Source: Candidatus Thalassarchaeum sp. (lineage in GTDB: Archaea > Thermoplasmatota > Poseidoniia > Poseidoniales > Thalassarchaeaceae). Taken from it: a stretch of 64,000 nucleotides of DNA. Positions 46,852-64,000 of the stretch are shown here, one piece after another; the stretch's first letter is position 1, and every line of letters starts with the position of its first letter. The position numbers and the translations under genes were made by a program. The DNA is taken from NCBI GenBank assembly GCA_022449345.1, contig JAKURL010000001.1, forward strand, positions 14,211 to 78,210, read 5' to 3'. The notes beneath the pieces are model-generated. The model was not told the DNA's origin, searched no databases, and saw only the letters and a program-made list of their open reading frames with translations.

Positions 46852-48900
46852 GTGCGCACAGCGACTCCTGGCATTGAGAGAATTTTCTCTTGGTCATCAA
46901 TTGACTCTAAGTCAAGAGTTGTAATCCTAGTCTCGCTATTGCTAATTTGCACAATTCCTCAGTCAACTGGTCAAGAGACAATTACTGGATGGGGGGAAGT
47001 TGAGAGTTGGACGGATAATGACCTGAACGCTGCAGTTATTCATGGAACTAATGTGTGGGTGTTCGGAGATTTTGGAACTGTTCGATATAGTGAAGACAAC
47101 GGGGCTACTTGGCACAACCATTCTGCCCTTGGAAATGCAGACCTAATCGCTGCGGATTCCCTAGATGACTCTATGGCCGTTCTATCCGCTGATGGAATAA
47201 TCCACATGATGTTTGGGCTAGATGCAGACTGGGAAAAAATAGACTCTGGACAAAGTGGCATTAATGGCATCGCAGTAACCGGTGAGCAATCCGTGGTAAT
47301 TGTAGGAGACAAGGGTGCTATTTGGCAGTACACTGATGAGACTTGGTGGAACAGAACAACAACCTTCAATGAGAATCTGCATGATGTTGCCTTCAATGGG
47401 GATCAAGATGGATTGGCCGTTGGTGATGCAGGGACGATTCTGGCAACAAATGATGGAGGCGCTACATGGGATTACAGAGCGGCTCCAGATGCGGATTCCT
47501 CGATTGTTTCAGTATCTTACTTCAATCCATATCGTATGTTCGCAGTAAGTGATTCTGGGCAAATCCTCTACTCCACATCTCCAGGTGGATTTGAGTGGCA
47601 ATTGAGAGAAATTGAATCGATGGATTATGAGACTACACTTGCGACTACTCTTTCCTCGATTGAAGTAGTTTCTTCCTCGAGAATTCTATTTGCTGGACCC
47701 GATGGATATCTTGGATTGAGTTTAGATCAAGGCTTGAATGTTGAAAGAAATATTCTACCTGCAGGAGTAAATACCTCGTTCAATGACCATGCAATGTTCG
47801 ACTACGTAGTGGGCATCGTTGTCGGTGATTCAGGAGTCATCCTGTTTACCGATAGAGCAGGAGAAAACGAAGATATTGGATTCGAAATCCCCGACTACAA
47901 TAACTTTGGAGAATTTGTTGAATATGCAGACGATATGTTGTTGGCTGGATTCATTGCAACGGTAAAAATCGTAGTTTTCGGAATTTTGTTGGGATTCACT
48001 ATTGGGGTTATCTTGGCGATGTTAAAGACTGCACCTACATCTTTCAAGAATGTGCTAGAACGATATTCTACAAATCAAATTAGGGGACTTGGGGCATACT
48101 GTTCGGTAATCGGATTATGGTTATTATACACCGGAGTCAGTAGATTCCCAGAATTACAATTGGAGGGGTTGGAGTACATTTTCACTCCAGTAGGAGACCC
48201 TCGAGGATTTGCGATGTTTGCTTTGGGATTAGCAATTGTTGCAATTTCTATTCAATTCATTCTAGCCGATAAAAAATTGTCCGGACCTCTTTTCAAAGTT
48301 CGACCATTGAACTCATTAGCAACCGTCTATACTGATTTCTTCCGCAACACACCTCTGATTGTGCAATTTATGTTCATCCACTTCGGACTACGTTTGGGAA
48401 TGAGGATTCAACAATTGATGGAAGGAACGTTTGGTGACCCAGGTATTGATGGAATCGACTATTTCTTTTATGGGGACAGAACTTTCCTCAGCGCAATTTT
48501 CACTCTAGGTCTTAACTCAGGAGCATACCAATGCGAGACTATACGTGGTGCGATTTCTGCCATACCTTCGGGTCAAATGGAAGCAGGTAGAAGCATCGGT
48601 CTGACCTATTTGGGAACTATGAGATTAGTAATATTGCCACAAGCGATTAGAATTTGTATCCCCCCAATCGGTAATGAGATGGTTAACTTAGTACTAAATT
48701 CTTCACTAGCAATGGTGATTGGCTATTCTGAACTTTCTCGTCAAGGAAAACTGATGATTGCAACAACCTTCCAAATTTTCTCAGCATGGGGTCTTGTGAT
48801 GATTTCCTACTTCGTAGTTACTTGGACACTCGCCTTGATTCTGAGAAGACTAGAGGACACTACACGCATCCCTGGATTAGGGATTTCAGGAGGTTCATGA
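46852..48900 (+). CDS. Polar amino-acid ABC permease (HisM/GlnP family) fused to an N-terminal YCF48/BNR-type beta-propeller
   Basis: Permease motifs FFRNTPLIVQF, LNSGAY..ETIRGAI.AIP.GQ.EAGRSIG and ILPQAIR..NSSLA. Blades GDFGTVRYSEDNGATW and GDAGTILATNDGGATW. Confidence 0.88.
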   Translation: MRTATPGIERIFSWSSIDSKSRVVILVSLLLICTIPQSTGQETITGWGEVESWTDNDLNAAVIHGTNVWVFGDFGTVRYSEDNGATWHNHSALGNADLIAADSLDDSMAVLSADGIIHMMFGLDADWEKIDSGQSGINGIAVTGEQSVVIVGDKGAIWQYTDETWWNRTTTFNENLHDVAFNGDQDGLAVGDAGTILATNDGGATWDYRAAPDADSSIVSVSYFNPYRMFAVSDSGQILYSTSPGGFEWQLREIESMDYETTLATTLSSIEVVSSSRILFAGPDGYLGLSLDQGLNVERNILPAGVNTSFNDHAMFDYVVGIVVGDSGVILFTDRAGENEDIGFEIPDYNNFGEFVEYADDMLLAGFIATVKIVVFGILLGFTIGVILAMLKTAPTSFKNVLERYSTNQIRGLGAYCSVIGLWLLYTGVSRFPELQLEGLEYIFTPVGDPRGFAMFALGLAIVAISIQFILADKKLSGPLFKVRPLNSLATVYTDFFRNTPLIVQFMFIHFGLRLGMRIQQLMEGTFGDPGIDGIDYFFYGDRTFLSAIFTLGLNSGAYQCETIRGAISAIPSGQMEAGRSIGLTYLGTMRLVILPQAIRICIPPIGNEMVNLVLNSSLAMVIGYSELSRQGKLMIATTFQIFSAWGLVMISYFVVTWTLALILRRLEDTTRIPGLGISGGS

Positions 48901-49734
48901 ATGCCTGAAATAGTCCTATCAATCCGCGATTTACACAAGATGTATGCCGGAGGCGTTCATGCTGTAAGAGGTGTCTCTTTTGACGTTCATGAGGGTGAAT
49001 CAGTAGCAATAATCGGCTCCTCTGGTTCAGGTAAATCTACCGTGCTACGTTGCATAAATCGACTGATTGAGCCAACGGACGGTGTAATCGAGCTAAGGGG
49101 TGAACAAATTAACACTCCAAGTGCAGATGTTAACCGCGTTAGGAGTAGAATAGGAATGGTCTTCCAGTCCTTCGAATTATTTGCTCACCTGAAAGTCGTG
49201 GATAACGTCACACTAGGATTGCGCCACGTTCGGGGTATGAGTAAAGATGAGGCGGAGAAGGTTGCTCTAGAGGTATTAGGAAGAGTGGATATGCTTGAGC
49301 GAGTCGATGCATATCCTGGCAATCTATCAGGAGGTCAAAAGCAACGGGTTGCAATTGCTAGGGCTCTAGCGATGATGCCTGAGGTTATCCTATTCGATGA
49401 ACCAACTAGCGCACTCGACCCCGAATTAATTGGCTCGGTATTGCAAACCATTCGTGGATTGGCCGATGAGGGTATGACTATGGTTATCGTGACACATGAA
49501 ATTAATTTCGCTAGGGATGTAGCCGACAGAATCGTCTACTTAGATCATGGACAAGTAGCTGAAGAAGGACCTTCGTCAATCATCAACGATCCGAAGACTG
49601 AAAGACTACAAAAATTCCTCTCATCAATGCACGAAGATGAAGTTCCAGAAGCGATTGAGAAAGAACTGGTCGATGGGAATACTGGATATGGGTATGTTCC
49701 CGATGGTAAGGGAGCCGGGCCGCGTGTCCGCTGA
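48901..49734 (+). CDS. Amino-acid ABC transporter ATP-binding subunit (GlnQ-like)
   Basis: GSSGSGKST, FQSFELF, LSGGQKQRVAIARAL, FDEPTSALDPE and VTHE motifs. Confidence 0.95.
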   Translation: MPEIVLSIRDLHKMYAGGVHAVRGVSFDVHEGESVAIIGSSGSGKSTVLRCINRLIEPTDGVIELRGEQINTPSADVNRVRSRIGMVFQSFELFAHLKVVDNVTLGLRHVRGMSKDEAEKVALEVLGRVDMLERVDAYPGNLSGGQKQRVAIARALAMMPEVILFDEPTSALDPELIGSVLQTIRGLADEGMTMVIVTHEINFARDVADRIVYLDHGQVAEEGPSSIINDPKTERLQKFLSSMHEDEVPEAIEKELVDGNTGYGYVPDGKGAGPRVR

Positions 49735-49740
49735 GAATTT

Positions 49741-51189
<1,449 letters not shown>

Positions 51190-51224: not shown

Positions 51225-52541
51225 TCAGGCGAATAGGTGTCTCTCGGCTAATTTTGCCACATTTTTCTGATGACCTGGTAGTGTCATTACGTAAACTACG
51301 GCTTGGCTAACCTGTCGCTTTCTCAGGGCCTCCGCGATTGGAGTGTGCTCACTGAATCTTCGAGTTCTACCATCGTCCCCAATTATTCGGACATCTACAG
51401 CCGCCATTCGTGGTTCGGATAGTAGCAATTTGACGCTTGGAACGTCAATTGCAACATAACCTAGTTCTAGACCTGCTCTGTGTGCTAGATCGTCTTCTAT
51501 TTCTCTACGCTTTTCGGAACTTGTGGCAATTTCCACTAGTCTTTGAATTTGTGAGGAGGATAGTTCCTCTTGTCTCCTACTTGTAGCAACCTTCAGCATC
51601 TGACGATACTTTAGTCGGCGCATCATATCTCGAGAGTAATCACCCGCTTCATAGAGTGCCTGCCACATTTCAGCATCTACACTTCTTTGCATCTCCTTTG
51701 GATCCGGTAAGTAATCCGCCGAGCGTTCCACCGCTCGGCTGAGCATTACTTCTGTTACTCTTGTGACACGATGGAAATATACCGCGCTATACATCAGACC
51801 TCTAGCCATCAACATTCCTTCTAGGGAAGTTAGTCCTCCTTCTTCTACGGCAATATCACCTCCATGTCTACGCAGGCAAGAAATTAGTCGGTGATGGTCT
51901 ACGATTCCGTGTTTTACACCTGTAAAATGTGAATCCCGCAATAGATAGTCGATTTGGTCGCAATCAACGGGCCCATGTACGAGGTGACCGAGTGTTCGGT
52001 CTTCTGCAACCAAGTCCTCCTTTCCATCAGTCCAAGATAGTAGGGTTCTTTCTGTGCCCCTCGCATCTGGACCTCGAATCAACGCCGCTACATCTTCTGG
52101 TTCAATATCGTAGGATTCTAGAATCTCTGGAATCCTTTTTCGATCATTGATGCTAGTCTCTTCACCTTCACGCAATACATCATATTCGCCGAGAATAATT
52201 CCCTCTGTAATCGACATATGATCAAGGCCACCCCTTTCATGGAGTATGTGCTCTAAGGTGTGCGAATAAGGGCCATGCCCTACATCGTGTAACATTCCAG
52301 CAACTTGCACCAAAGTCTTCTCAAATTCTTCCAGGCCCATGGCATCGGCCATCATCCCACCTACGTGAGACACTCCTAGAGAATGCTCGAAGCGAGTGTG
52401 GTGTGCTCCTGGGAAAACAAGGTGAGCTAAGCCAAGTTGTTTGATGTGGCTAAGTTTGTTCATCTCTGGAGTTGAGAGCAAATCTGCCGTAACTCCGTCA
52501 AGAGAAATCTGTCCATGAATCGTGTCGTTGATGACCTTCAT
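51225..52541 (-). CDS. HD-domain phosphohydrolase (SAMHD1/YdhJ-like dNTPase family)
   Basis: INDTIHG, KQLGL, HTRFEHSLGV, LHDVGHGPYSH and D.DQIDYL.RD motifs. Confidence 0.9.
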   Translation of the reverse strand: MKVINDTIHGQISLDGVTADLLSTPEMNKLSHIKQLGLAHLVFPGAHHTRFEHSLGVSHVGGMMADAMGLEEFEKTLVQVAGMLHDVGHGPYSHTLEHILHERGGLDHMSITEGIILGEYDVLREGEETSINDRKRIPEILESYDIEPEDVAALIRGPDARGTERTLLSWTDGKEDLVAEDRTLGHLVHGPVDCDQIDYLLRDSHFTGVKHGIVDHHRLISCLRRHGGDIAVEEGGLTSLEGMLMARGLMYSAVYFHRVTRVTEVMLSRAVERSADYLPDPKEMQRSVDAEMWQALYEAGDYSRDMMRRLKYRQMLKVATSRRQEELSSSQIQRLVEIATSSEKRREIEDDLAHRAGLELGYVAIDVPSVKLLLSEPRMAAVDVRIIGDDGRTRRFSEHTPIAEALRKRQVSQAVVYVMTLPGHQKNVAKLAERHLFA

Positions 52542-52676: not shown

Positions 52677-52726
52677 AATACACTTAAGAGCCCTAGGCCT
52701 TCTTGCAGACTCAGGAGGAATGCAGA

Positions 52727-53092
52727 ATGGCAGGTCAAAGCCCGATGATTTCACTAAGAATTCCAGAAGATTACTTGCTAGAACTCGAGCGCAGGGTCGG
52801 ATTCGATGGCATGAGAAACAAGTCTGATGTTATTCGAGAAGCCATCAGGAGATTCTTGGCTACGCCTGCGATTCCTTCCGGCATCCGCATCGAGGTAGAA
52901 TTAGGCCCCGACCTGAGTGTTCGCTTGGACGACTTCTGTCGAATCCATGGCGAACAGCCAGATGTCGTCCTACGATATGCAGCGCGCGAACACATCGCTC
53001 GTTCATCTGCTGACGATGCAACAGTCGATGCGGCGCTACGTAAGCGCCTCGATGAGCTTCGTGCTCGCTTCGATGAATCGACTGAACAATGA
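52727..53092 (+). CDS. Ribbon-helix-helix (CopG/NikR-like) protein with two RHH-like halves
   Basis: MISLRIPEDYLLELE..NKSDVIREAIRRFL and IEVELG.DL..RLDDFC..PDVVLRYAAREHI. GGAGG SD before ATG 52727. Confidence 0.85.
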   Translation: MAGQSPMISLRIPEDYLLELERRVGFDGMRNKSDVIREAIRRFLATPAIPSGIRIEVELGPDLSVRLDDFCRIHGEQPDVVLRYAAREHIARSSADDATVDAALRKRLDELRARFDESTEQ

Positions 53093-53431: not shown

Positions 53432-56344
53432 ATGGCGGTGGACATCTCCGACCTCTCCAGATTTGAGAGATTGACTCCATTCCGAGTCCGAGATGTGTTA
53501 CTGGTAGCCAGTCCTTTCGACCACTACCTTCTCGAGGAGTCTGGCTATTTAGCTGAAATTATGCGCCAGGAATACTCCGACCTAAACCTCTCTCAGGCAC
53601 CGAGGATGATTCATAGCCCTCAAGCTAATGACGCTCTAGAACTTCTTCGAACACGCAGTTTCGACCTAGTAATTACAATGGTTAGGGTTGGTGTGATGGA
53701 CGCTTATGCATTCGGTAGAGAAGCCAAGCGAATCAATCCTGAATTGCCAGTGGTTATGCTCAGCCACAATACGAGAGAATTGGCGACCCTTCACTCCGGC
53801 GATGGTATAGACCGAATTTTCGTATGGACGGGGGATAGTCGAATTCTGTTATCGATTTGCAAATTGATTGAAGATGAAAGAAATGTTGCCAACGACGTTG
53901 AGAATGCCGATGTTCAAGTGATTTTGCTAATCGAGGATAGTCGTAGATTTTACTCGGCATATCTACCATTACTGTATACACAATTGGTTAACCAAACAAT
54001 GCGACTCATGGGGGAAGGGGGTAACCTCCACGAGAGATTGCTCAGGTTACGCGCTAGGGCAAAAATTCTCCTAGCGAATGATTACCCGACGGCGCAGGAA
54101 TTGGTAGACAAATATCATAGAAACATAATCGGAATTTTCACCGATGGAAAATTTCCAGACCCTGTCGGTGGAAGGGATACTGCAGGTCTAAAACTTGTTC
54201 AATATGTAAAGGAAAAAGATTCTAACCTGCCTATTTTATTCCAATCAAAAAATATCGAACTAAAGGAGGACGCTGAATCTTTAGGGGTACGTTTCCTCCA
54301 CAAAGAGGATTCGCAGTTATACTCTAGAATTGCAGATTTTATGCTGCAAGAAATGAGTTTCGGGGATTTCGTGTTCAAGATGCCAGACGGTAAAGAAATC
54401 GCACGGGCTTCAACACTCAGAGAGTTGACTGCTCAATTAAAAGATGCACCAATCGAGTCCGTTGAATTCCACGCTCATCGAAACCAATTCTCACATTGGC
54501 TTAGGACAAGAACTGAATTCACCTTGGCTGGAAGATTACGGCCTCTTACGTTATCTGACTTTGAGACTACCGAAGAAATTCGTGAGTTTATTCTCGGTTC
54601 GATTGAATCCCATCTATCACAAACTCGCAGTAGGACCATTCGGGATCACGATGCTGAAGGTGGTGAAATCGGATTTCAAAGAATCGGCAGAGGTAGTTTA
54701 GGAGGAAAGGGCCGTGGTTTAGCCTTCTTCTTCACAAGAATGCCCGACCTCGGTTTAGAGGATAAATTCCCTGAGGTCAATTTCATAATTCCAAGATCCG
54801 TTGTTCTATCGACAAACATCTTTGAGGATTTCATCGAAAAGAACAACCTATCACGATACGCCCATGAAGATCATCTGAATTCCGAAGTCGATGCTGCATT
54901 CATCGCCGGAGACCTATCCGAAAAGGTTCGAGATGAGTTGTTGGCTATCGTTTCAAGATTGAAATGGCCGCTGGCAATTCGCTCTTCGAGCTTACTTGAG
55001 GATGCCAGCCACCAGCCATTCGCAGGGGTCTATTCCACACATATGCTAGCCAATGACCACCAGAATCTCGATATTCGACTGAGGAGATTAGAAGAGGCTA
55101 TCAAACTCGTGTATGCCTCAACATATCACAAGAGCTCGAAGGCATACGTTTCAGCCACTCCGTCGAATATCGAGGATGAACGAATGGCTGTTGTAATTCA
55201 GGAATTGGTCGGTAGAGAAGTGAATGGTAGATTCTATCCTCATATTTCAGGGGCCGCTCGATCACGCAATCATTACCCAATCGCGCCACTCAAGGCCGAA
55301 GACGGAATTGCTGCTGTTTGTATTGGCTTAGGAAGACAAGTTGCTTCTGGGGAAAAATGTCTTAGATTTAGCCCGGGCCAACCAAAGAGAATCCACCAAT
55401 TCCATAGTACAGATTCAATCCTCAACACCTCGCAGATGAGTTTCTGGGCGATTCCTATGGGGAAGTCGGAAACACCGGTATCGTCCGATGAGGCTAAAAA
55501 TCTGGTAAACCTAGATTTGAACGAAGCTGAAATCGATGGTAGACTCGGCTTGGTCGGTTCAACATACATTTCTGATGACGACCGAATAGTGGACTCACTA
55601 CGCGCAGATGGAGGACCTAGAGTGGTTACATTCGCTCCGATTCTAAAAAATAAGCGAGTGCCTCTTGCTAGTATCTTACACCATGTATTGACTCGATGTG
55701 AGAGTTATCTCAACTCACCCATTGAGATAGAGTTTGCATTCGTCCTAGACGAAGAAACTGAACAACAAATCTTCGCTCTATTACAGGTTCGGCCGATACT
55801 GGAAGAATCAGTCGATATCGACATTGACATGAGTGAGGTAGACAAGAGTCGTGCTATCTGTATGTCTACCCAATCCCTAGGGAATGGTGTAATCGACGAC
55901 ATCAGTGATGTTGTCTATATCCATCCAAATCGACTGGACCGAATGAAGACAAGTGATTTAACCGACCACATTGAAGAAATCGATGCGAAACTGAGGCAAG
56001 ATGGTAGGCCATACCTTCTGATTGGACCTGGAAGATGGGGTTCTTCCGATCCATCGCTAGGAATTCCTGTATCTTGGGATCAAATCAGGGGGGCGAAGGC
56101 GATTATTGAGGTCCCAATGTCCGACATCCATGTCGAACCGAGCCAAGGTACTCATTTCTTCCAGAATATTGTCACATTCCATATTGGATACCTAACGATT
56201 ACTGACGAAGATTTGCTCGATTTTGATTGGTTAGATGGGGTTGATAGTGAAGCAGAAATCGGGCCTCTTCGACATATTTCTTTGAAAAAACCACTCAAAG
56301 TCGTATTAGATAGCAGAGACTCTGAGGCAATAATTCTGAGATGA
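53432..56344 (+). CDS. Receiver-domain / PPDK-N (ATP-grasp) fusion protein lacking the PEP-binding barrel
   Basis: Two receiver-like repeats (VLLVAS..FDLVITM and ILLIEDS..IFTDGKFP); GSLGGKGRGLAF, AIRSSSLLED..FAG.Y.T, MAVVIQE; C-terminal EPSQGTHFFQN. Confidence 0.85.
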   Translation: MAVDISDLSRFERLTPFRVRDVLLVASPFDHYLLEESGYLAEIMRQEYSDLNLSQAPRMIHSPQANDALELLRTRSFDLVITMVRVGVMDAYAFGREAKRINPELPVVMLSHNTRELATLHSGDGIDRIFVWTGDSRILLSICKLIEDERNVANDVENADVQVILLIEDSRRFYSAYLPLLYTQLVNQTMRLMGEGGNLHERLLRLRARAKILLANDYPTAQELVDKYHRNIIGIFTDGKFPDPVGGRDTAGLKLVQYVKEKDSNLPILFQSKNIELKEDAESLGVRFLHKEDSQLYSRIADFMLQEMSFGDFVFKMPDGKEIARASTLRELTAQLKDAPIESVEFHAHRNQFSHWLRTRTEFTLAGRLRPLTLSDFETTEEIREFILGSIESHLSQTRSRTIRDHDAEGGEIGFQRIGRGSLGGKGRGLAFFFTRMPDLGLEDKFPEVNFIIPRSVVLSTNIFEDFIEKNNLSRYAHEDHLNSEVDAAFIAGDLSEKVRDELLAIVSRLKWPLAIRSSSLLEDASHQPFAGVYSTHMLANDHQNLDIRLRRLEEAIKLVYASTYHKSSKAYVSATPSNIEDERMAVVIQELVGREVNGRFYPHISGAARSRNHYPIAPLKAEDGIAAVCIGLGRQVASGEKCLRFSPGQPKRIHQFHSTDSILNTSQMSFWAIPMGKSETPVSSDEAKNLVNLDLNEAEIDGRLGLVGSTYISDDDRIVDSLRADGGPRVVTFAPILKNKRVPLASILHHVLTRCESYLNSPIEIEFAFVLDEETEQQIFALLQVRPILEESVDIDIDMSEVDKSRAICMSTQSLGNGVIDDISDVVYIHPNRLDRMKTSDLTDHIEEIDAKLRQDGRPYLLIGPGRWGSSDPSLGIPVSWDQIRGAKAIIEVPMSDIHVEPSQGTHFFQNIVTFHIGYLTITDEDLLDFDWLDGVDSEAEIGPLRHISLKKPLKVVLDSRDSEAIILR

Positions 56345-58967: not shown

Positions 58968-61900
58968 CTAAGCGACTGATTCGCTTAGGTCAAAGGAATC
59001 TCTTTCAGGGATTTCTTGTAATTCGTCGATCTCCTGCAATACCATAGAGAGTGCGTGCTGAGCGTTTTGTCTGTGGCCATCGCCTAACTTGTGAGAGGAA
59101 TATCTCGCTTCTTCGAAAATCCTGTCTAATGCCACAAGGGCTTCCTCGCTAATTGGTAGAGCCTTTCTAATCGCCATTTCAAATTCTCTAACTGTTTCAA
59201 AGTCACGGCGCAAGAACCCATGACGCATGAGAATATTGCAAAGGCTCTCATAGCAATTGAAGATGGCCTCACGAATCTCGTCGCCAGCGGCAAGTAACTC
59301 TGCTGTATAGCTGAATATTCCCGCCATCTCATCGAGGGCTGCTAATCTACGACGCCTTAGTGATAAGGCGAGTCCTGTAAGAGTTCCTAAAATCAGAAGA
59401 ATTCCAACAATTGCAATTATTTGCCAGATGGTGAATAGCGATGCTGGATCCTCGTATGTCATCTTGATACCTCCATGTTCGTTGGCTAGCCACAAACGAT
59501 CGTTTGGACTAATTAGTTGAGAATCTGTCTGGAAGATTAGTGATAATTCTCCCCATTTAGTTTGGTCAAAGAATGCGGGTTGGTTTTGGATTATGAAATC
59601 ATAATCCATTATTCCATTTTCATCTGTAAGTTTGACATTCTGGAAGTGGATGGTTGTGGTATTGACCAGGCGCGCGACGATAGATATACCTCCAATAGGT
59701 AGACCTGTATCGTTTGCGGAAACTGTAACTGTTCCATTTATTCTCCTCTGGTTTTCTTTGATGTGATGGCTATCGGGTGTGAATGTGAAAGTAACTGGTA
59801 CACGGATATTGACAATGTGTTCAATTTCGACACCGTTGAGGAATCTATCAGCATCGGCGAGTACTGAGAGGGTTAGTGTCAACTCGCCAGGAGGCATTGT
59901 AGAGCGGGCCGGTGAGCGGAGGTCGAAGTGACCTGTGGATTCGTCCCAAACCAGTACCGAAGGCTCTGCAGAACCGTCCCATAGCAATACGACTTCCATA
60001 CCTTCGATAACATTGCCCTCTCCGCCGAATTCAACTATTCGTCCTACCAATTTTATCTCCTTGGACTCGTCTGAACGGATGATTAAATCAGTCTCCCACA
60101 ATACTTCGATGAGAATATCTGCTCTAGCATAAACCGTCATGTTGTATTCTACTGGAAGGTAGAATGTTTGGCCTTCAAAGGTGAATCTAATATCGTGCCC
60201 GCCTCTTGCGATAAGATAGCCAATCGAATAATCTAATTCGAAACTGCCATCTTCGCCAGTAGTTAATCGATTGATTTCCACACCATCTAAAGTAACGATA
60301 ATCTCTCGGCCAACCAGACCGGGGGCACCTGAAGTATCCGAGTCAAATAGACGACCTGTGAAGCTCCATTGTTCCCCCCTAGTAACCGATACTTCATCTA
60401 CCTGTAGATTGATTGCCGTATGGTATGCAATTGTTAGGTTGGCTTCAACACTACCTGGCCTGTAGTATCCCTGTGCGGGTGCCGATACGGTAATGGTGTG
60501 GAAGCCGATATCTAAGAAGTCCGAGACCACCCAATTGAAGGACCAGCCTCCATTTTCACGACTGGTAGTAATCCCAACTAGAGTTCCATCAATGAAGATT
60601 TCAAGTGAGTGATTGGCTAATCCACCATCTGGTAGATTATCCCTAACAGTTCCAGAAAGTCTCATCTCATCGCCTACTGCATAAGCACTCGGCGGATTAA
60701 TAGAGATGATTGTTGGAGCATATACGGTGAATACTGTTGTTGAATTTGAAGGTAGAATAAATTCCTCACCTTGGAAAATAATCTTGACTAGGCGTGGTCC
60801 TAGTGGCATATCTGGAGGGATTGGAAGGTAGATGCTGAATGTACCATTTTCTTCAACCTGAAGACCTGTTAGGAATTGATCGTTCATCGTCACCTCAAGA
60901 TATCTATCACCAAGGATGCGGCCGGCTCCATCAGTAAGCATTCCTTCAATCAGAAGCAATTGATTTCTATCGACATCACCTGGTGGAGTTGTTAGGACAA
61001 CTTGGGAGGTTTGTGTGACATTGAATTCTATAGTAGTCGAAGAAGGTAAGTAATATTCTGGATTTAACGAATCTCCTTGACCCATAGGATCTACCCAAGT
61101 AAATCCTCCAAGGAAAATTGCGGTCACAGTGTGAGCCCCATAGTCCATATCCAGTGGTAAATCATAGGTCACTTGCCATTCTCCGGAGGATGCATTTGAA
61201 ACAGTTGTATAGGTAGAACCAACATCAATTCCATCTATCCAGATGTGGAGGACACCTCCAGAAAGTAGGCCGCTATCGGTCAATGTATGGCCATGTTCAT
61301 CTAGCAGCGTTCCTGTAAAAGTAATATTTTCTCCCGCAACCATCGAACCAAATAATTCATTGAATTCAATTACGGTCGGGGCAAGGACGATTACTCTAGA
61401 CCAAGTAGCGTCACCTTGCAATCCGGTAGAACCGTTAATTCCTGCAAATTCTGCAGAAATTAGCATAGGTCCCTGTATTCTTTGCGAATCTACTGGGATG
61501 ACAAAAGTTGCACGGCCGCCTGCATCGGTAATTACAGATTGAATGAACGTACCATCGACTAGGATGTCTATAGGTGCATTATCAACTAATTGGCCGGCAT
61601 TGTCGATAAGGGAGATGTTGACACTAACATCATTGCCCCTGACTACTCTTCTATCAGGATCAAGATCCGCGGGGTCTAATATTGAAATTAGTGAATATCC
61701 TCTACTATCAAAGATTCCAGAATCACTGCTTGAACCGTAGTAATTTACGGTGGGAGTGAAACTTGCAGTGATATTATGTGTGCCGCGAGGGAAGGAAAGA
61801 CCTAGGGTAATTACTGAGTTCCAAGTACCATTCGGATTAACCACACCTCCTGATGTTTGGAATCCTGAATCTGTGCCATCGATTCGGAAGGTTAAGAATG

Positions 61901-64000
61901 CAGCCAACGAGGCTCCTGACCTATCCATTATTCCAGTACCGTTGCTTGAGAGCAATGTTCCGCTGACATTGAAGGATTCACCTGCTACTGGATTATCAGA
62001 TACTGGTGAAATTGTCAGATTGGTCGGTGAACGGACAAATATCTGGTTCATCACAGTTGATGTTGAGTGGAGGGTAGATGACCCATTGAAGAATAATGTA
62101 ATTCCTATTTGACCAAGTGGGTGGGAATGTGGAACGTCGAAGGTGAAATTGACCAAACCTTCTCCATTTGTCACTGCTTCAGTCATCCAAGTATCGTGGA
62201 ATTTAGCAGCAACCGTCATGCCACCAACCGGAATATCGTTATCGGAATATTCAGTTAATCGTGCTCCGAAAGTTATGGAAGTACCTCTATCCACAACCGT
62301 CTGAATAATTGGGGTTCGATCCGTGAAACGGGTGACTCCTTTGACTAGGATAGAAGCATTACCAGTACCCGTGAGGTAGAATGGGGAGCTATCCTCAATA
62401 ACGCTCACGACTACCGTTTTTGTGCCACTAGAAACTCCATCGCCAAATGGGTCGGTTGGGACTGAAATAGTGAAAGAGCCATTACTTGTTGTTGTGTGTC
62501 CGGAAACCAATGTTTCGCTTGAGTCGTTTAGGAAGAACACTTCCACTGCCATTGGTCCATTTACAGTTCGGTTGCTATCGAAGCCATCTAGAACCCTTCC
62601 AGAAATTGTGAATGATTGACCAGCTGTGACTTCTTGAGGAATGGAATCAATTGTAACGTGGCTATCTACTTGCACAGTTAAATTCGCGAATGTGTCATTA
62701 CCAATCCAACGCCCTGCATCTGTATCAGTGAGGTTGTCTGTTAAGTCATCATTAGCATGTACACGAAGGTCGTAGAAGCCCGGAATCGTATCTTCAAGTA
62801 GAGTCGGGTTAAATCTAGCAACACCGTCAACATCTGTGGTCGCGGTATCGATAATTATCTGGTTCGGACCACCCCAATCGAAATAGAGGTCAACATTGGC
62901 ATCAGGCACCACAGAGCCATCTGCAATATCGGTGATTGTTGCGTTGAGAATTAAGGTGGTTCCCGCTACGACAATTATAGATTCGGGTTCTGCTTCAACT
63001 ACAAATTCACTCTGGATTCCTGAGAGAACTCTTGTTTGAGCTAAAGTAGTATAGAATGGTCCGAGTATTGCTGCGTTAGTTGAGAAATCTAAAACGAAAC
63101 GCATGAAGTAAGCACCAGAGCGAATGTCACTTGGCATTGTGAATGAGTAGTTGTAGGCACCAGTGGTCTCATTGATCCATCCACTGACTAAGGTATGTAT
63201 GACTGGTGGAGCTGGGCTTCCATCTGGGCTAGGAGGTAAGTCAGAAGGAGTCTCCAGTTGAACCACAATTGACGAGTTATTTCCAATTATAGGAGTCAGG
63301 TGGAAAATGTCCTGCGCGACTCCTGACACCCATGTAACGGTTCCTCTTTCGGTCCATTCCGAACCTAGAGTAACTGTTACGTTGGCTCTTCCTTGTATCC
63401 TAATTTCATCCGAGACCGATGCTGGACGTAGCCATGTTGATCCAGAGTAATTCATCTGCCAAGAGTAATCTCCTGCAATAGTATCTGATTTAGGCGCCCA
63501 AACCACATTGAAACTACCGGATTCTGGGTCGGTAATATTGAAGACTTCCGTACCATTGAAATCGACTGAGTACAGGCCAGGGAAATCGGCAACCGAGGTC
63601 TCGGTGTGATCTGAAAGTTGCACAATAACAAATGCTTCATTGCCCCTAGGCGTTGGATTCAACACATAGGTGAACTCGACGTATGACCTGATTCCGTATG
63701 TAGACAGGAAAGTTTCCTCATCAGTTGCGAATAGATCATCCGCTGAATAGGTGAATTTCACTTCAACCAGCCCCGAAGGAATTGCTACAGATGACTCGTT
63801 GAAGTCCCATTGCAGAGCGAATTCACCTGAAGTTGAAGTCCAGTTGCTTGAGTTCAGTTGCCAAGTAGCAAGATCTGTGTATGGGCCATTGGTCCCAGCC
63901 CTGCGCATTTGGAAAGTAAGTGTGCCATTCAATGCCTCGGGAGCAGGACCTCTACTAACTGCAGTACCATTGATGAAGACTAGTTCATTTATATCGAGGA
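58968..64000 (-). CDS. Large surface protein with tandem Ig-like repeats, C-terminal TM and DUF4129-like domain; 5' end outside window
   Basis: The frame is open upstream of the track start to base 64000. Repeated G.L.D.....TT..DG.F modules, TM IVGILLILGTLTGLAL, and REAIF.CY..L..ETVREF...LDRIFEEARYS.H. Confidence 0.85.
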   Translation of the reverse strand, partial: LDINELVFINGTAVSRGPAPEALNGTLTFQMRRAGTNGPYTDLATWQLNSSNWTSTSGEFALQWDFNESSVAIPSGLVEVKFTYSADDLFATDEETFLSTYGIRSYVEFTYVLNPTPRGNEAFVIVQLSDHTETSVADFPGLYSVDFNGTEVFNITDPESGSFNVVWAPKSDTIAGDYSWQMNYSGSTWLRPASVSDEIRIQGRANVTVTLGSEWTERGTVTWVSGVAQDIFHLTPIIGNNSSIVVQLETPSDLPPSPDGSPAPPVIHTLVSGWINETTGAYNYSFTMPSDIRSGAYFMRFVLDFSTNAAILGPFYTTLAQTRVLSGIQSEFVVEAEPESIIVVAGTTLILNATITDIADGSVVPDANVDLYFDWGGPNQIIIDTATTDVDGVARFNPTLLEDTIPGFYDLRVHANDDLTDNLTDTDAGRWIGNDTFANLTVQVDSHVTIDSIPQEVTAGQSFTISGRVLDGFDSNRTVNGPMAVEVFFLNDSSETLVSGHTTTSNGSFTISVPTDPFGDGVSSGTKTVVVSVIEDSSPFYLTGTGNASILVKGVTRFTDRTPIIQTVVDRGTSITFGARLTEYSDNDIPVGGMTVAAKFHDTWMTEAVTNGEGLVNFTFDVPHSHPLGQIGITLFFNGSSTLHSTSTVMNQIFVRSPTNLTISPVSDNPVAGESFNVSGTLLSSNGTGIMDRSGASLAAFLTFRIDGTDSGFQTSGGVVNPNGTWNSVITLGLSFPRGTHNITASFTPTVNYYGSSSDSGIFDSRGYSLISILDPADLDPDRRVVRGNDVSVNISLIDNAGQLVDNAPIDILVDGTFIQSVITDAGGRATFVIPVDSQRIQGPMLISAEFAGINGSTGLQGDATWSRVIVLAPTVIEFNELFGSMVAGENITFTGTLLDEHGHTLTDSGLLSGGVLHIWIDGIDVGSTYTTVSNASSGEWQVTYDLPLDMDYGAHTVTAIFLGGFTWVDPMGQGDSLNPEYYLPSSTTIEFNVTQTSQVVLTTPPGDVDRNQLLLIEGMLTDGAGRILGDRYLEVTMNDQFLTGLQVEENGTFSIYLPIPPDMPLGPRLVKIIFQGEEFILPSNSTTVFTVYAPTIISINPPSAYAVGDEMRLSGTVRDNLPDGGLANHSLEIFIDGTLVGITTSRENGGWSFNWVVSDFLDIGFHTITVSAPAQGYYRPGSVEANLTIAYHTAINLQVDEVSVTRGEQWSFTGRLFDSDTSGAPGLVGREIIVTLDGVEINRLTTGEDGSFELDYSIGYLIARGGHDIRFTFEGQTFYLPVEYNMTVYARADILIEVLWETDLIIRSDESKEIKLVGRIVEFGGEGNVIEGMEVVLLWDGSAEPSVLVWDESTGHFDLRSPARSTMPPGELTLTLSVLADADRFLNGVEIEHIVNIRVPVTFTFTPDSHHIKENQRRINGTVTVSANDTGLPIGGISIVARLVNTTTIHFQNVKLTDENGIMDYDFIIQNQPAFFDQTKWGELSLIFQTDSQLISPNDRLWLANEHGGIKMTYEDPASLFTIWQIIAIVGILLILGTLTGLALSLRRRRLAALDEMAGIFSYTAELLAAGDEIREAIFNCYESLCNILMRHGFLRRDFETVREFEMAIRKALPISEEALVALDRIFEEARYSSHKLGDGHRQNAQHALSMVLQEIDELQEIPERDSFDLSESVA

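What the first reader, a model, noticed from the sequence alone, without database searches (positions are those of the whole stretch)
53432..56344. Double-receiver / dikinase ATP-grasp protein: a possible non-histidine-kinase phosphorelay
Seen: receiver 1 lacks the acceptor Asp (DLVITM), while receiver 2 keeps the acidic pocket, Asp and Lys (LIEDS, IFTDGKFP, FLHK). A PPDK/PEPS nucleotide-binding domain follows, then a short C-terminal domain with a conserved-looking His (SQGTHFFQN). There is no PEP/pyruvate TIM barrel and no histidine kinase in the window. Established: PPDK-N plus a phospho-His domain without the barrel is the layout of rifampin phosphotransferase and glucan water dikinases, so it cannot be a normal PEP synthase. 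From memory, Bacteroidetes homologues often lie beside gdh genes, and gdhA is 2.3 kb away here. Inference: an ATP-to-His-to-Asp or protein-phosphorylating regulator of glutamate/nitrogen metabolism.
Basis: partly seen in the sequence, partly recalled or inferred. Interest (0 to 1): 0.65.

Follow-up and report, generated by a model that had tools for sequence, protein, structure and literature searches.

The report
Receiver-gated ATP-grasp enzyme near GDH
This archaeal gene encodes a signal-receiver protein fused to an ATP-splitting module and a new histidine-bearing end domain. It belongs to a large, unstudied, mostly bacterial family whose only regular gene neighbour is glutamate dehydrogenase, so it is probably an undescribed switch on that central nitrogen enzyme.

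Summary
ORF 53432-56344 (+) encodes 970 aa: a pseudo-receiver, a canonical receiver (E168/D169/D238/S272/K291), a DUF5752-like segment, a PPDK_N ATP-grasp, and a 175-aa C-terminal domain whose H908 is kept in 95 of 96 diverse homologues. The three ATP-site residues defined by mutagenesis in rifampin phosphotransferase are kept.

The C-terminal domain is not the canonical swivel phospho-histidine domain. It has no Pfam hit and no PDB sequence hit, and a confident model finds no fold match.

The gdh link is real and strong. In 80 loci from many phyla, GdhA-type GDH lies in 53. It lies within 500 bp in 34 of the 51 loci that have flanks of at least 3 kb. No other neighbour family exceeds 8 loci. 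Some loci alternate GDH and family paralogues.

In this archaeal order the gene is a patchy single-gene indel (19 of 121 genomes). It sits 2.2-2.3 kb from gdhA in all 15 carriers of the window's family.

An obligatory His-to-Asp relay is disfavoured. Eleven of 96 homologues have lost D238 but keep H908, and receiver-less relatives keep the His domain.

Best reading: a receiver-gated ATP-to-His phosphotransferase acting on or with GDH. No paper on the family was found. Biochemistry is untested.

The parts
53432..56344 (+). Whole gene, 970 aa: pseudoREC-REC-DUF5752-like-PPDK_N ATP-grasp-His C-terminal domain
   Evidence: ORF; Pfam; AF2 pLDDT 89.9, pTM 0.83. It is a clean single-gene indel against same-genus genomes: synteny breaks at about 53370 and resumes at about 56380.
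53480..53836 (+). Receiver 1 (residues ~17-135), a family-wide pseudo-receiver
   Evidence: The acceptor position 82 is T/I/S/A/V and never D in 96 homologues. The beta1 end carries 'SS' in place of the acidic pair. The AF2 secondary structure shows a (beta-alpha)5 fold.
53840..53908 (+). Helix linking the two receivers (residues 137-159), with a conserved acidic face (E147, D148, N151, D155)
   Evidence: E147 is kept in 96/96, D148 in 95, N151 in 92 and D155 in 91. Helix 137-159 is seen in the model. Its function is unknown.
53909..54352 (+). Receiver 2 (residues 160-307), a canonical phospho-acceptor receiver; D238 codon at 54143-54145
   Evidence: E168 is kept in 92/96, D169 in 81, D238 in 85, S/T272 in 91 and K291 in 91. 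The model matches the PleD, PorX, CheB and NtrX receivers.
54356..54661 (+). DUF5752-like hairpin plus helical segment (residues 309-410); candidate substrate- or partner-binding part
   Evidence: PF19027 scores 28.5 bits against a cut-off of 23, covering model positions 19-109 of 208. Conserved residues are G309, F310, G311, F315, H347 (89/96), W356 (96/96) and A366. The role is an inference.
54674..55801 (+). PPDK_N-type ATP-grasp nucleotide-binding domain (residues ~415-790)
   Evidence: PF01326 scores 108.7 bits. The best PDB fold match is rifampin phosphotransferase 5hv1, E 3.7e-12. K426, R517 and T536 align with RPH K22, R117 and T136 and are kept in 96, 96 and 87 of 96 (PMC4844700). The E765-x-E767...Q785-x-R787 motif is conserved.
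55817..56341 (+). C-terminal domain (residues 796-970) carrying H908 (codon 56153-56155) and the G865-P-G-R868-W-G-S-x-D873 loop; proposed phosphoryl carrier
   Evidence: H908 is kept in 95/96 and R868 in 95/96. The stand-alone AF2 model has pLDDT 92.9 and pTM 0.90, and H908 is the first residue of a helix. There is no Pfam hit, no PDB sequence hit and no PDB fold match.
49741..51171 (-). gdhA (GdhA-type glutamate dehydrogenase), the inferred functional partner, 2261 bp upstream on the opposite strand
   Evidence: ELFV_dehydrog and ELFV_dehydrog_N domains. The same spacing of 2.23-2.33 kb occurs in 15 of 15 carriers of the window's family. GDH is the only conserved neighbour across phyla.

Best explanation
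The gene encodes a receiver-gated, ATP-dependent phosphotransferase of the PEP-synthase/PPDK/rifampin-phosphotransferase ATP-grasp lineage.

Proposed mechanism:
- The ATP-grasp (K426, R517, T536, E765/E767/Q785) splits ATP.
- It loads a phosphoryl group onto H908. This histidine sits at the N-terminal end of a helix, next to a glycine-rich R868 loop, in a new non-swivel C-terminal domain.
- The group is then passed to an external acceptor.
- The N-terminal pseudo-receiver/receiver pair, laid out like PleD, is the regulatory input. Phosphorylation of D238, or an equivalent conformational signal, sets the activity.
- The acceptor, or at least the controlled target, is most likely the GdhA-type glutamate dehydrogenase. 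The protein would then be a post-translational switch on ammonium assimilation and glutamate catabolism.

Shown here: the domain anatomy, residue conservation, folds, the genomic linkage to GDH, and the single-gene indel.

Inferred: ATP-to-His transfer, the direction of signalling, and GDH as the direct target.
For: Catalytic competence:
- PPDK_N scores 108.7 bits.
- The fold matches RPH 5hv1 at E 3.7e-12.
- The equivalents of RPH K22/R117/T136 are kept in 96, 96 and 87 of 96 (mutagenesis in PMC4844700).

Carrier histidine:
- H908 is kept in 95/96, in S-x-G-[ST]-H-F-F-[QH]-N. It starts a helix in a model with pLDDT 92.9.
- The genome has no PF00391 swivel domain anywhere, so no carrier can be supplied in trans.

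The His function is independent of the receiver Asp:
- The 11 of 96 homologues without D238 all keep H908, K426 and R517.
- The receiver-less proteins P0253 and P0255 keep both C-terminal-domain motifs.

GDH link:
- GdhA lies in 53 of 80 loci. It lies within 500 bp in 34 of the 51 loci with at least 3 kb on both sides.
- Adjacency is seen in 14 named phylum-level lineages.
- Unbiased clustering of neighbours gives GDH in 53 loci and the next family in only 8.
- Alternating GDH-family-GDH-family-GDH arrays occur in L045, L047 and L041.
- One Ignavibacteria paralogue clade is followed by a second GDH type in 5 of 7 loci.
- In the window's family, 15 of 15 carriers hold the gene 2.2-2.3 kb from gdhA.

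Precedent: VadK, a truncated PPDK, autophosphorylates on His and binds methylcitrate-cycle enzymes (PMC13400623).
Against: - There is no biochemistry for any family member. Seven literature searches were attempted; one was rejected for a term-format error. The six that ran found no paper on this family.
- The C-terminal domain has no similarity to any known phospho-His carrier, so phospho-His is inferred from conservation and position only.
- All characterised PPDK_N enzymes except VadK phosphorylate small molecules.
- In this archaeon gdhA is not adjacent. Two backbone genes (HD, RHH) intervene and the strands are opposite.
- In the four Poseidoniaceae carriers gdhA is on a different contig, and in the two fetched (L090, L091) the flanking ORFs have matching sizes; Pfam, run on L090 only, names them L10e and ABCE1.
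- About a quarter to a third of bacterial loci with full flanks have no GDH nearby, and two Bacteroidota contigs also lack it.
Confidence: 0.5

Rival explanations
1. Self-contained ATP-to-His908-to-Asp238 phosphorelay. The ATP-grasp/His module replaces a histidine kinase and phosphorylates the protein's own receiver. The phosphorylated receiver pair is then the output, for example by binding GDH.
For: REC2 keeps a complete phospho-acceptor pocket in this protein and in most homologues. Eighteen of 19 carrier genomes in this archaeal order have no histidine kinase at all. No kinase gene is a conserved neighbour in bacteria. The high pTM of 0.83 suggests a compact assembly in which the domains could touch.
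Against: Eleven of 96 homologues have lost D238 (to S/E/Q/N/L/C/G) but every one keeps H908, K426 and R517. Receiver-less relatives keep the His domain. Two other orphan receiver proteins persist in kinase-less sister genomes that lack this gene, so receivers in this order do not depend on it. A relay ending in its own receiver leaves no output domain.
Confidence: 0.15
2. Receiver-regulated small-molecule dikinase. Like PEP synthase, RPH, PigC/RedH, HpeHI or phenylphosphate synthase, it would phosphorylate a metabolite of the glutamate/2-oxoglutarate node or a cofactor. It would be encoded with GDH because it shares a pathway, not because it modifies GDH.
For: Apart from VadK, the characterised PPDK_N enzymes recalled (PEPS, PPDK, PigC/RedH: own knowledge) or seen in the abstracts (RPH, HpeHI, glucan water dikinase, MarK) act on non-protein substrates. 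NCBIfam's weak best hits are PigC, PEPS and RedH. The DUF5752-like segment and the C-terminal domain pocket (R868, D873, E893, N912) could bind a small ligand. GltD-like glutamate synthase subunits are also neighbours in 5 loci.
Against: There is no large substrate-binding domain comparable to the TIM barrel or the RIF-binding domain. One-to-one alternating arrays of GDH and family paralogues, and paralogue-specific GDH partners, fit protein-protein specificity better than a shared metabolite. A sister form fuses a protein-modifier-like nucleotidyltransferase.
Confidence: 0.2
3. In this archaeon the gene is a horizontally acquired accessory gene, and its nearness to gdhA is a coincidence of the insertion site. 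Its function there may be unrelated to GDH or may be decaying.
For: The distribution is patchy: 19 of 121 genomes and 7 of 21 genera. It is a clean one-gene indel. In the tree the archaeal clade sits on a long stem among bacterial clades. In all four Poseidoniaceae carriers gdhA is on another contig; the two fetched have same-sized flanking ORFs, which Pfam (run on L090 only) names L10e and ABCE1. The gene is not adjacent to or co-oriented with gdhA here.
Against: The frame is intact and every functional residue is kept across archaeal orthologues down to 50% identity. All 121 genomes have GdhA, so the partner is always available. The chance of landing within 2.3 kb of gdhA in a 1.5-Mb genome is about 0.3% (own arithmetic), and the bacterial linkage gives a prior for it.
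Confidence: 0.1
4. Catalytically silent ATP-sensing scaffold. The ATP-grasp only binds nucleotide and the protein regulates GDH allosterically, without phosphotransfer.
For: Regulatory pseudo-enzymes are common, and no activity has been shown.
Against: The catalytic K, R and T, the Mg-binding E/E/Q and H908 are invariant or nearly so across 96 sequences at 30-72% identity. Mere nucleotide binding would not require this.
Confidence: 0.05

Closest known systems
Rifampin phosphotransferase (RPH-Lm; PDB 5hv1/5fbs; PMC4844700)
   Same: It has a PPDK_N ATP-grasp and is the best fold match (E 3.7e-12). The same catalytic K/R/T are present. The catalytic His lies in a C-terminal domain rather than a central one. 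It has no PEP/pyruvate barrel.
   Different: There is no RIF-binding domain. The C-terminal domain is not the beta/beta/alpha swivel fold. Two N-terminal receivers and a DUF5752-like segment are added. The NCBIfam RPH model scores 16.8 bits against a cut-off of 999.
VadK (Rv1127c) of Mycobacterium tuberculosis, a truncated PPDK acting as a regulatory His (di)kinase (PMC13400623)
   Same: It is an ATP-grasp plus His carrier without the barrel. It autophosphorylates on His and binds and tunes enzymes of central metabolism. This is the same logic as proposed here for GDH.
   Different: VadK keeps the canonical PPDK phospho-transfer domain (His422), has no receiver domains and is about 490 aa. Its partners are methylcitrate-cycle enzymes. 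No sequence relationship beyond PPDK_N was tested here.
PEP synthase / pyruvate phosphate dikinase
   Same: The nucleotide-binding ATP-grasp (PF01326) and, presumably, a His-mediated phosphoryl transfer.
   Different: It lacks PF00391 and PF02896. The genome has no PF00391 at all. NCBIfam PEPS models score 20-49 bits against cut-offs of 598-1063.
PleD-type double-receiver response regulators
   Same: A tandem of one true and one pseudo receiver precedes an enzymatic output. The model matches PleD at E about 3e-8.
   Different: The order is reversed, with the pseudo-receiver first. The output is an ATP-grasp/His module, not GGDEF. No cognate kinase exists in this genome.
Dedicated covalent regulators of central enzymes (GlnE on glutamine synthetase, AceK on isocitrate dehydrogenase); comparison from own knowledge
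   Same: The proposed role is the same: a large dedicated enzyme that switches one metabolic branch-point enzyme, encoded beside it. A sister form carries a nucleotidyltransferase like GlnE's.
   Different: The folds are unrelated. No modification of prokaryotic GdhA by such a system has been described in the library searched.

Membership tests
PEP-utilising dikinases (PEPS/PPDK) | PPDK_N ATP-grasp nucleotide-binding domain | tested here: met
   PF01326 scores 108.7 bits against a cut-off of 27, over residues 422-793.
PEP-utilising dikinases (PEPS/PPDK) | Swivel phospho-histidine domain (PF00391, T-S-H motif, beta/beta/alpha sandwich) | tested here: not met
   No PF00391 hit for the protein or for 74 C-terminal-domain sequences at E<=1. 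The C-terminal-domain model finds no PDB fold at E<=0.001.
PEP-utilising dikinases (PEPS/PPDK) | PEP/pyruvate-binding TIM barrel (PF02896) | tested here: not met
   No hit. The protein ends 175 residues after the ATP-grasp.
PEP-utilising dikinases (PEPS/PPDK) | ATP-dependent autophosphorylation of a catalytic His (beta-phosphate), products AMP plus Pi | not testable with these tools
   This needs labelled-ATP or mass-spectrometry assays.
Rifampin phosphotransferase | RIF-binding domain with the Arg-Glu-Lys block, and a family model score over the cut-off | tested here: not met
   NF041857 scores 16.8 bits against 999. The PDB sequence alignment covers only residues 501-603.
Rifampin phosphotransferase | ATP-site residues K22, R117 and T136 | tested here: met
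   R517 and T536 align with R117 and T136. K426 corresponds to K22 only by the shared GGKG motif, which lies outside that alignment (inference). They are kept in 96, 96 and 87 of 96.
CheY-like response-regulator receiver (REC2) | Acidic pair, acceptor Asp, Ser/Thr and Lys at the ends of beta1, beta3, beta4 and beta5, on a (beta-alpha)5 fold | tested here: met
   E168, D169, D238, S272 and K291 are present and conserved. The fold matches PleD, PorX, CheB and NtrX. Pfam detects only the REC1 segment, at 28 bits against 30.2.
CheY-like response-regulator receiver (REC2) | Phosphorylation by a cognate histidine kinase | tested here: not met
   No histidine kinase exists in the genome: the HATPase_c hits are GyrB, TopoVI-B and MutL. 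Eighteen of 19 carriers in the order also lack one. Phosphorylation by another donor is not excluded.
Classical histidine kinase (some databases name homologues 'histidine kinase') | HisKA/DHp dimerisation domain and HATPase_c catalytic domain | tested here: not met
   Neither domain is found in the protein.
DUF5752 (PF19027) | Match over the Pfam gathering score | tested here: met
   28.5 bits against 23, but only model positions 19-109 of 208 are covered. The family has no known function, and no paper mentions it.
GDH-linked PPDK_N + His-C-terminal-domain family (uncharacterised; defined here and in earlier notes of this scan) | ATP-grasp followed by a C-terminal domain with the G-x-G-R-W-G-[ST] and S-x-G-[ST]-H-F-F-[QH]-N motifs | tested here: met
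   Both motifs are present. More than 7,700 homologues were found, with 1,021 clusters at E<=1e-30.
GDH-linked PPDK_N + His-C-terminal-domain family (uncharacterised; defined here and in earlier notes of this scan) | Gene next to a glutamate dehydrogenase gene | tested here: inconclusive
   In this window gdhA is 2261 bp away, on the opposite strand, with two genes between. This is the rule in 15 of 15 carriers of the window's family. Direct adjacency is the rule in bacteria.

The most novel reading that the evidence does not exclude
This protein and its relatives are a widespread, undescribed post-translational control system dedicated to glutamate dehydrogenase. It would be the GDH counterpart of GlnE/glutamine synthetase or AceK/isocitrate dehydrogenase. 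A PPDK-type ATP-grasp loads a new, non-swivel phospho-histidine carrier domain, which phosphorylates GDH. Receiver domains gate the activity (GAF domains in relatives, per earlier scan notes, not checked here). In kinase-less marine archaea these receivers must read a non-canonical signal. These would be the first protein-directed dikinase-fold enzymes with their own new carrier fold.
Probability: 0.35. Interest if true: 0.9.

Novelty: new variant of a known kind. Interest (0 to 1): 0.7.

Why it matters
Glutamate dehydrogenase sits at the junction of carbon and nitrogen metabolism. Unlike glutamine synthetase, it has no known dedicated covalent regulator in prokaryotes.

This family has thousands of members across more than a dozen bacterial phyla, plus abundant marine archaea. 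It is linked to GDH genes one-to-one and built from an ATP-splitting module, a conserved histidine on a new fold and a signalling receiver. That makes the question of how GDH is switched directly testable with a few purified proteins.

From memory and unverified, since the papers are not in the searchable library: reversible in-vivo inactivation of Bacteroides fragilis GDH was reported in the 1980s without a mechanism. This family is a candidate explanation.

It would also extend the catalytic repertoire of the PPDK/PEPS superfamily and show a histidine-kinase-independent use of receiver domains in archaea.

Tried and rejected
- Canonical swivel domain: rejected. The C-terminal domain has no Pfam hit, no PDB sequence hit and no PDB fold hit.
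- PEP synthase, RPH or PigC membership: rejected on NCBIfam scores far below the cut-offs.
- 'No kinase in the genome, therefore self-relay': weakened. Other orphan receivers occur in kinase-less sister genomes without this gene.
- RHH and HD genes as part of a module with this gene: rejected. They belong to the conserved backbone, and only the one gene is the indel.
- XPD helicase as a partner: it is a backbone neighbour only. In the Poseidoniaceae carrier L090 the gene lies between L10e and ABCE1 instead; L091 has same-sized flanking ORFs, not run through Pfam.
- Literature: seven searches were attempted. One was rejected for a term-format error; the six that ran found no paper on the family, and one search gave only the comparators RPH and VadK.
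- Naming a cultivated carrier: the look-ups returned unnamed metagenome contigs. Two of these Bacteroidota loci had no gdh nearby.
- DUF5752 in model organisms: it rings only in Sulfolobus acidocaldarius, which is uninformative.
- A profile-profile comparison of the C-terminal domain with a swivel-domain alignment was not run. The own genome has no PF00391 sequence to use, and I did not type one from memory.


Full report
**What is in the sequence**

The ORF 53432-56344 (+) of 970 aa exists exactly as reported.

Pfam finds three things:
- PPDK_N at 422-793 (108.7 bits).
- A partial DUF5752 match at 325-401 (28.5 bits, cut-off 23).
- A sub-threshold Response_reg hit at 63-115 (28 bits, cut-off 30.2).

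There is no PEP-utilizers domain and no PEP/pyruvate barrel. NCBIfam gives only weak partial hits to PigC, PEP synthase, RedH and RPH, all far below their cut-offs. The only PDB sequence hit is residues 501-603 to rifampin phosphotransferase.

**Family-wide conservation**

The protein has more than 7,700 homologues in the word-indexed search. The exhaustive search finds 1,021 clusters at 50% identity with E<=1e-30, nearly all about 1,000 aa and collinear with the query. I aligned 96 diverse full-length members of 30-72% identity (A1).

- Receiver 1 is a pseudo-receiver throughout. Position 82 is T/I/S/A/V and never Asp, and the beta1 acidic pair is replaced by Ser-Ser.
- Receiver 2 is canonical. 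E168 is kept in 92, D169 in 81, D238 in 85, S/T272 in 91 and K291 in 91.
- The ATP-grasp keeps K426, R517, S518, S519, G532 and Q785 in all 96. It keeps E523, D524, E765, E767 and R787 in more than 90%.
- From the PDB alignment, R517 and T536 are the exact equivalents of RPH R117 and T136. K426 lies in the GGKG motif that holds RPH K22. Mutagenesis showed these three residues are needed for the first phosphotransfer (PMC4844700).
- In the last 175 residues H908 is kept in 95 of 96, within S-x-G-[ST]-H-F-F-[QH]-N. A second loop, G865-P-G867-R868-W869-G870-[ST]-x-D873...G877-I-P879-V-x-W882, and E893 are equally conserved.
- A second conserved His, H347 (89/96), lies in the DUF5752-like part.

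**Structure**

AlphaFold2 on A1 gives a confident full-length model, with pLDDT 89.9 and pTM 0.83. Its domain order is:
- (beta-alpha)5 receiver, residues 17-135.
- Long helix, 137-159.
- Receiver, 160-307.
- Hairpin plus five helices, 309-400.
- ATP-grasp, about 415-790.
- An alpha/beta C-terminal domain, 796-970.

Foldseek against the PDB ranks rifampin phosphotransferase first (5hv1, E 3.7e-12). Next come the double-receiver regulator PleD (E about 3e-8), then PorX, CheB and NtrX.

I modelled the C-terminal domain alone from 74 sequences and got pLDDT 92.9 and pTM 0.90. H908 is the first residue of a helix, and the Gly-rich R868 loop follows a strand. This is the usual place for a phosphate site in an alpha/beta fold, and the reading is an inference from topology.

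This confident model finds nothing in the PDB. The best hit has E 0.013 and TM 0.29, and no PPDK, PEPS, RPH or Enzyme I swivel domain appears among the top 50. A profile of the domain hits no PDB sequence and no Pfam family. So the 'phospho-His domain' is not the known swivel domain. It is a new, or at least unrecognised, fold with an invariant His.

**Genomic linkage to GDH**

A scan of one genome per species returned 594 relatives, and the 80 best loci were kept with up to 10 kb of flank. The lineages represented are Acidobacteriota, Ignavibacteria, Bacteroidota, Desulfobacterota, Eisenbacteria, Gemmatimonadota, Myxococcota, Gamma- and Alphaproteobacteria, Actinomycetota, Fibrobacterota, Krumholzibacteriota, Planctomycetota, Calditrichota, Zixibacteria, Spirochaetota, Bacillota, Chlorobiota and Thermoplasmatota.

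- A GdhA-type GDH, at least 57% identical to the window's GdhA, lies in 53 of the 80 loci. Forty have a gap of 300 bp or less.
- Among the 51 loci with at least 3 kb on both sides, 34 have it within 500 bp and 40 within 3 kb.
- Adjacency occurs in 14 named phylum-level lineages.
- With a generous 2% chance per locus, 53 of 80 has probability about 1e-69. The loci are not independent, so this number only says that chance is not the explanation.
- An unbiased clustering of all ORFs in the 80 loci puts the family itself in 78 loci and GDH in 53. The next family, a generic ABC ATPase, is in 8. No histidine kinase is a conserved neighbour.
- Several loci hold alternating arrays. L045 and L047 read GDH-family-GDH-family-GDH. 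L041 reads family(with nucleotidyltransferase)-GDH-family-GDH-family-GDH.
- In the family tree, one Ignavibacteria/Bacteroidota paralogue clade is followed by a second, about 30%-identical but genuine ELFV dehydrogenase in 5 of 7 loci. The other clade is not.

One-to-one pairing of paralogues fits protein-level specificity.

**The archaeal setting**

The window comes from a 1.47-Mb Marine Group II (Poseidoniales) genome that is 94% complete.

- In 121 genomes of the order the gene is present in 19, spread over 7 of 21 genera. GdhA is present in all 121.
- In all 15 carriers of the window's family the gene lies 2.23-2.33 kb from gdhA on the same contig.
- In the 4 Poseidoniaceae carriers gdhA is on another contig. 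In the two fetched (L090, L091) the gene has flanking ORFs of matching sizes; Pfam, run on L090 only, names them ribosomal L10e and ABCE1.
- Same-genus genomes without the gene are collinear up to about 53370 and again from about 56380. The indel is therefore exactly this one gene. The HD-domain gene, the RHH gene and the XPD helicase belong to the backbone.
- In the tree the archaeal clade sits on a long stem inside an unresolved set of bacterial clades. Another Thermoplasmatota sequence groups with Desulfobacterota. This fits acquisition from bacteria, which is an inference.

**Kinases and carriers in this genome**

- The only HATPase_c matches are GyrB, TopoVI-B and MutL.
- Eighteen of the 19 carriers in the order likewise have no histidine kinase.
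- The genome also has no PF00391 swivel domain anywhere. No separate His-carrier subunit could serve this ATP-grasp, which leaves the protein's own C-terminal domain as the carrier.

The lack of kinases is not specific support for a self-relay. Two other receiver proteins, of about 250 aa and about 135 aa, occur in kinase-less sister genomes whether or not they carry this gene.

**Which way does the signal run?**

Eleven of 96 homologues have lost D238, yet all keep H908, K426 and R517. The receiver-less tandem proteins P0253 and P0255 keep both C-terminal-domain motifs. The ATP-grasp/His unit is therefore the conserved core. The receiver is a dispensable, sometimes degenerate, input module. 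This argues against an obligatory ATP-to-His-to-Asp relay and for His passing the phosphoryl group to something outside the receiver.

**Best reading and its limits**

I read the protein as a receiver-gated ATP-to-His908 phosphotransferase whose target, or at least whose controlled process, is GdhA-type glutamate dehydrogenase.

The nearest precedent is VadK. It is a truncated PPDK that autophosphorylates on His422 and binds methylcitrate-cycle enzymes (PMC13400623).

The steps 'ATP loads H908' and 'GDH is the acceptor' are inferences. All other characterised PPDK_N enzymes act on small molecules, so a metabolite substrate remains a serious rival. In this archaeon the gdh link is looser than in bacteria.

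Six literature searches that ran found no paper on the family or on DUF5752. A seventh attempt was rejected for a term-format error.

**Earlier notes of this scan**

Earlier notes on related windows reach the same GDH link and describe a GAF/nucleotidyltransferase sister form. I treated these as leads. I re-derived the linkage independently and saw the nucleotidyltransferase form myself in L041.

- The negative fold result for the C-terminal domain.
- The D238-loss against H908-retention test.
- The absence of any swivel domain or histidine kinase in the genome.
- The orphan-receiver control.
- The exact single-gene indel.
- The alternating GDH/paralogue arrays.

Noticed in passing
window 53840-53908 (residues 137-159): The helix joining the two receivers carries an almost invariant acidic face: E147 in 96/96, D148 in 95, N151 in 92 and D155 in 91. 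It is as conserved as the catalytic residues. It may be a docking surface for the His domain, for Mg, or for GDH.
   Followed up: partly
L041 5195-19270; L045 3971-14364; L047 8508-19598: Arrays alternate glutamate dehydrogenase genes and family paralogues, with up to three of each in 14 kb. In L041 and L060 one copy carries a C-terminal NTP_transf_2/Pol-beta nucleotidyltransferase in place of receivers.
   Followed up: partly
G000:C27:18136-18453 (L005) and G000:C28:14754-15008 (L006): Two orphan receiver proteins occur in a genome with no histidine kinase: one of 265 aa with a Pro-rich linker and a C-terminal membrane helix, and one of 146 aa. The same pair occurs across the genus. How receivers are used in kinase-less Marine Group II archaea is open.
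   Followed up: partly
window 46852-48900 (+): A 682-aa ORF appears, by eye from the translation, to fuse an N-terminal beta-propeller-like repeat region (signal/anchor, repeated DxGxTW motifs) to an amino-acid ABC permease. Its ATPase follows at 48901-49734, directly beside gdhA. Pfam was not run on these two ORFs; the ATPase reading rests on its Walker A (GSSGSGKST) and LSGGQ signature motifs and on its close L008 orthologue.
   Followed up: no
window 58968-63932 (-): A 1,654-aa ORF has many Ig-like/adhesin-type repeats rich in N-x-[ST] sequons, a C-terminal membrane helix and a cytoplasmic tail. It is probably a glycosylated surface protein typical of Marine Group II.
   Followed up: no
P0253 (1639 aa), P0255 (1523 aa): These receiver-less proteins hold two ATP-grasp-plus-C-terminal-domain units in tandem. 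The first unit keeps G-F-G-R-W-G-S and S-Q-G-[ST]-H-F-F-H-N. The second keeps the Gly-rich loop but not the His motif under a strict pattern.
   Followed up: partly
L019, L026, L033, L034, L059: A GltD-like small subunit of glutamate synthase is a neighbour of the family gene in 5 loci (Acidobacteriota, Spirochaetota and an unclassified MAG). This is a second link to the glutamate node.
   Followed up: no
L094/L095 1918-3129 and 9755-10840: In Bacteroidota contigs without a nearby gdh, the family gene lies about 3 kb from an ammonium transporter and next to a D-serine-dehydratase-like gene.
   Followed up: no
G000, whole genome: The genome has no PEP-utilizers (PF00391) domain at all, hence apparently no PEP synthase or PPDK. 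All 14 control genomes have one.
   Followed up: no
window 51225-52541 (-) and 52703-53092 (+): An HD plus HD_assoc_2 (dGTPase/SAMHD1-like) gene and a small ribbon-helix-helix gene lie between gdhA and the finding. Both are conserved in sister genomes that lack the finding's gene.
   Followed up: partly
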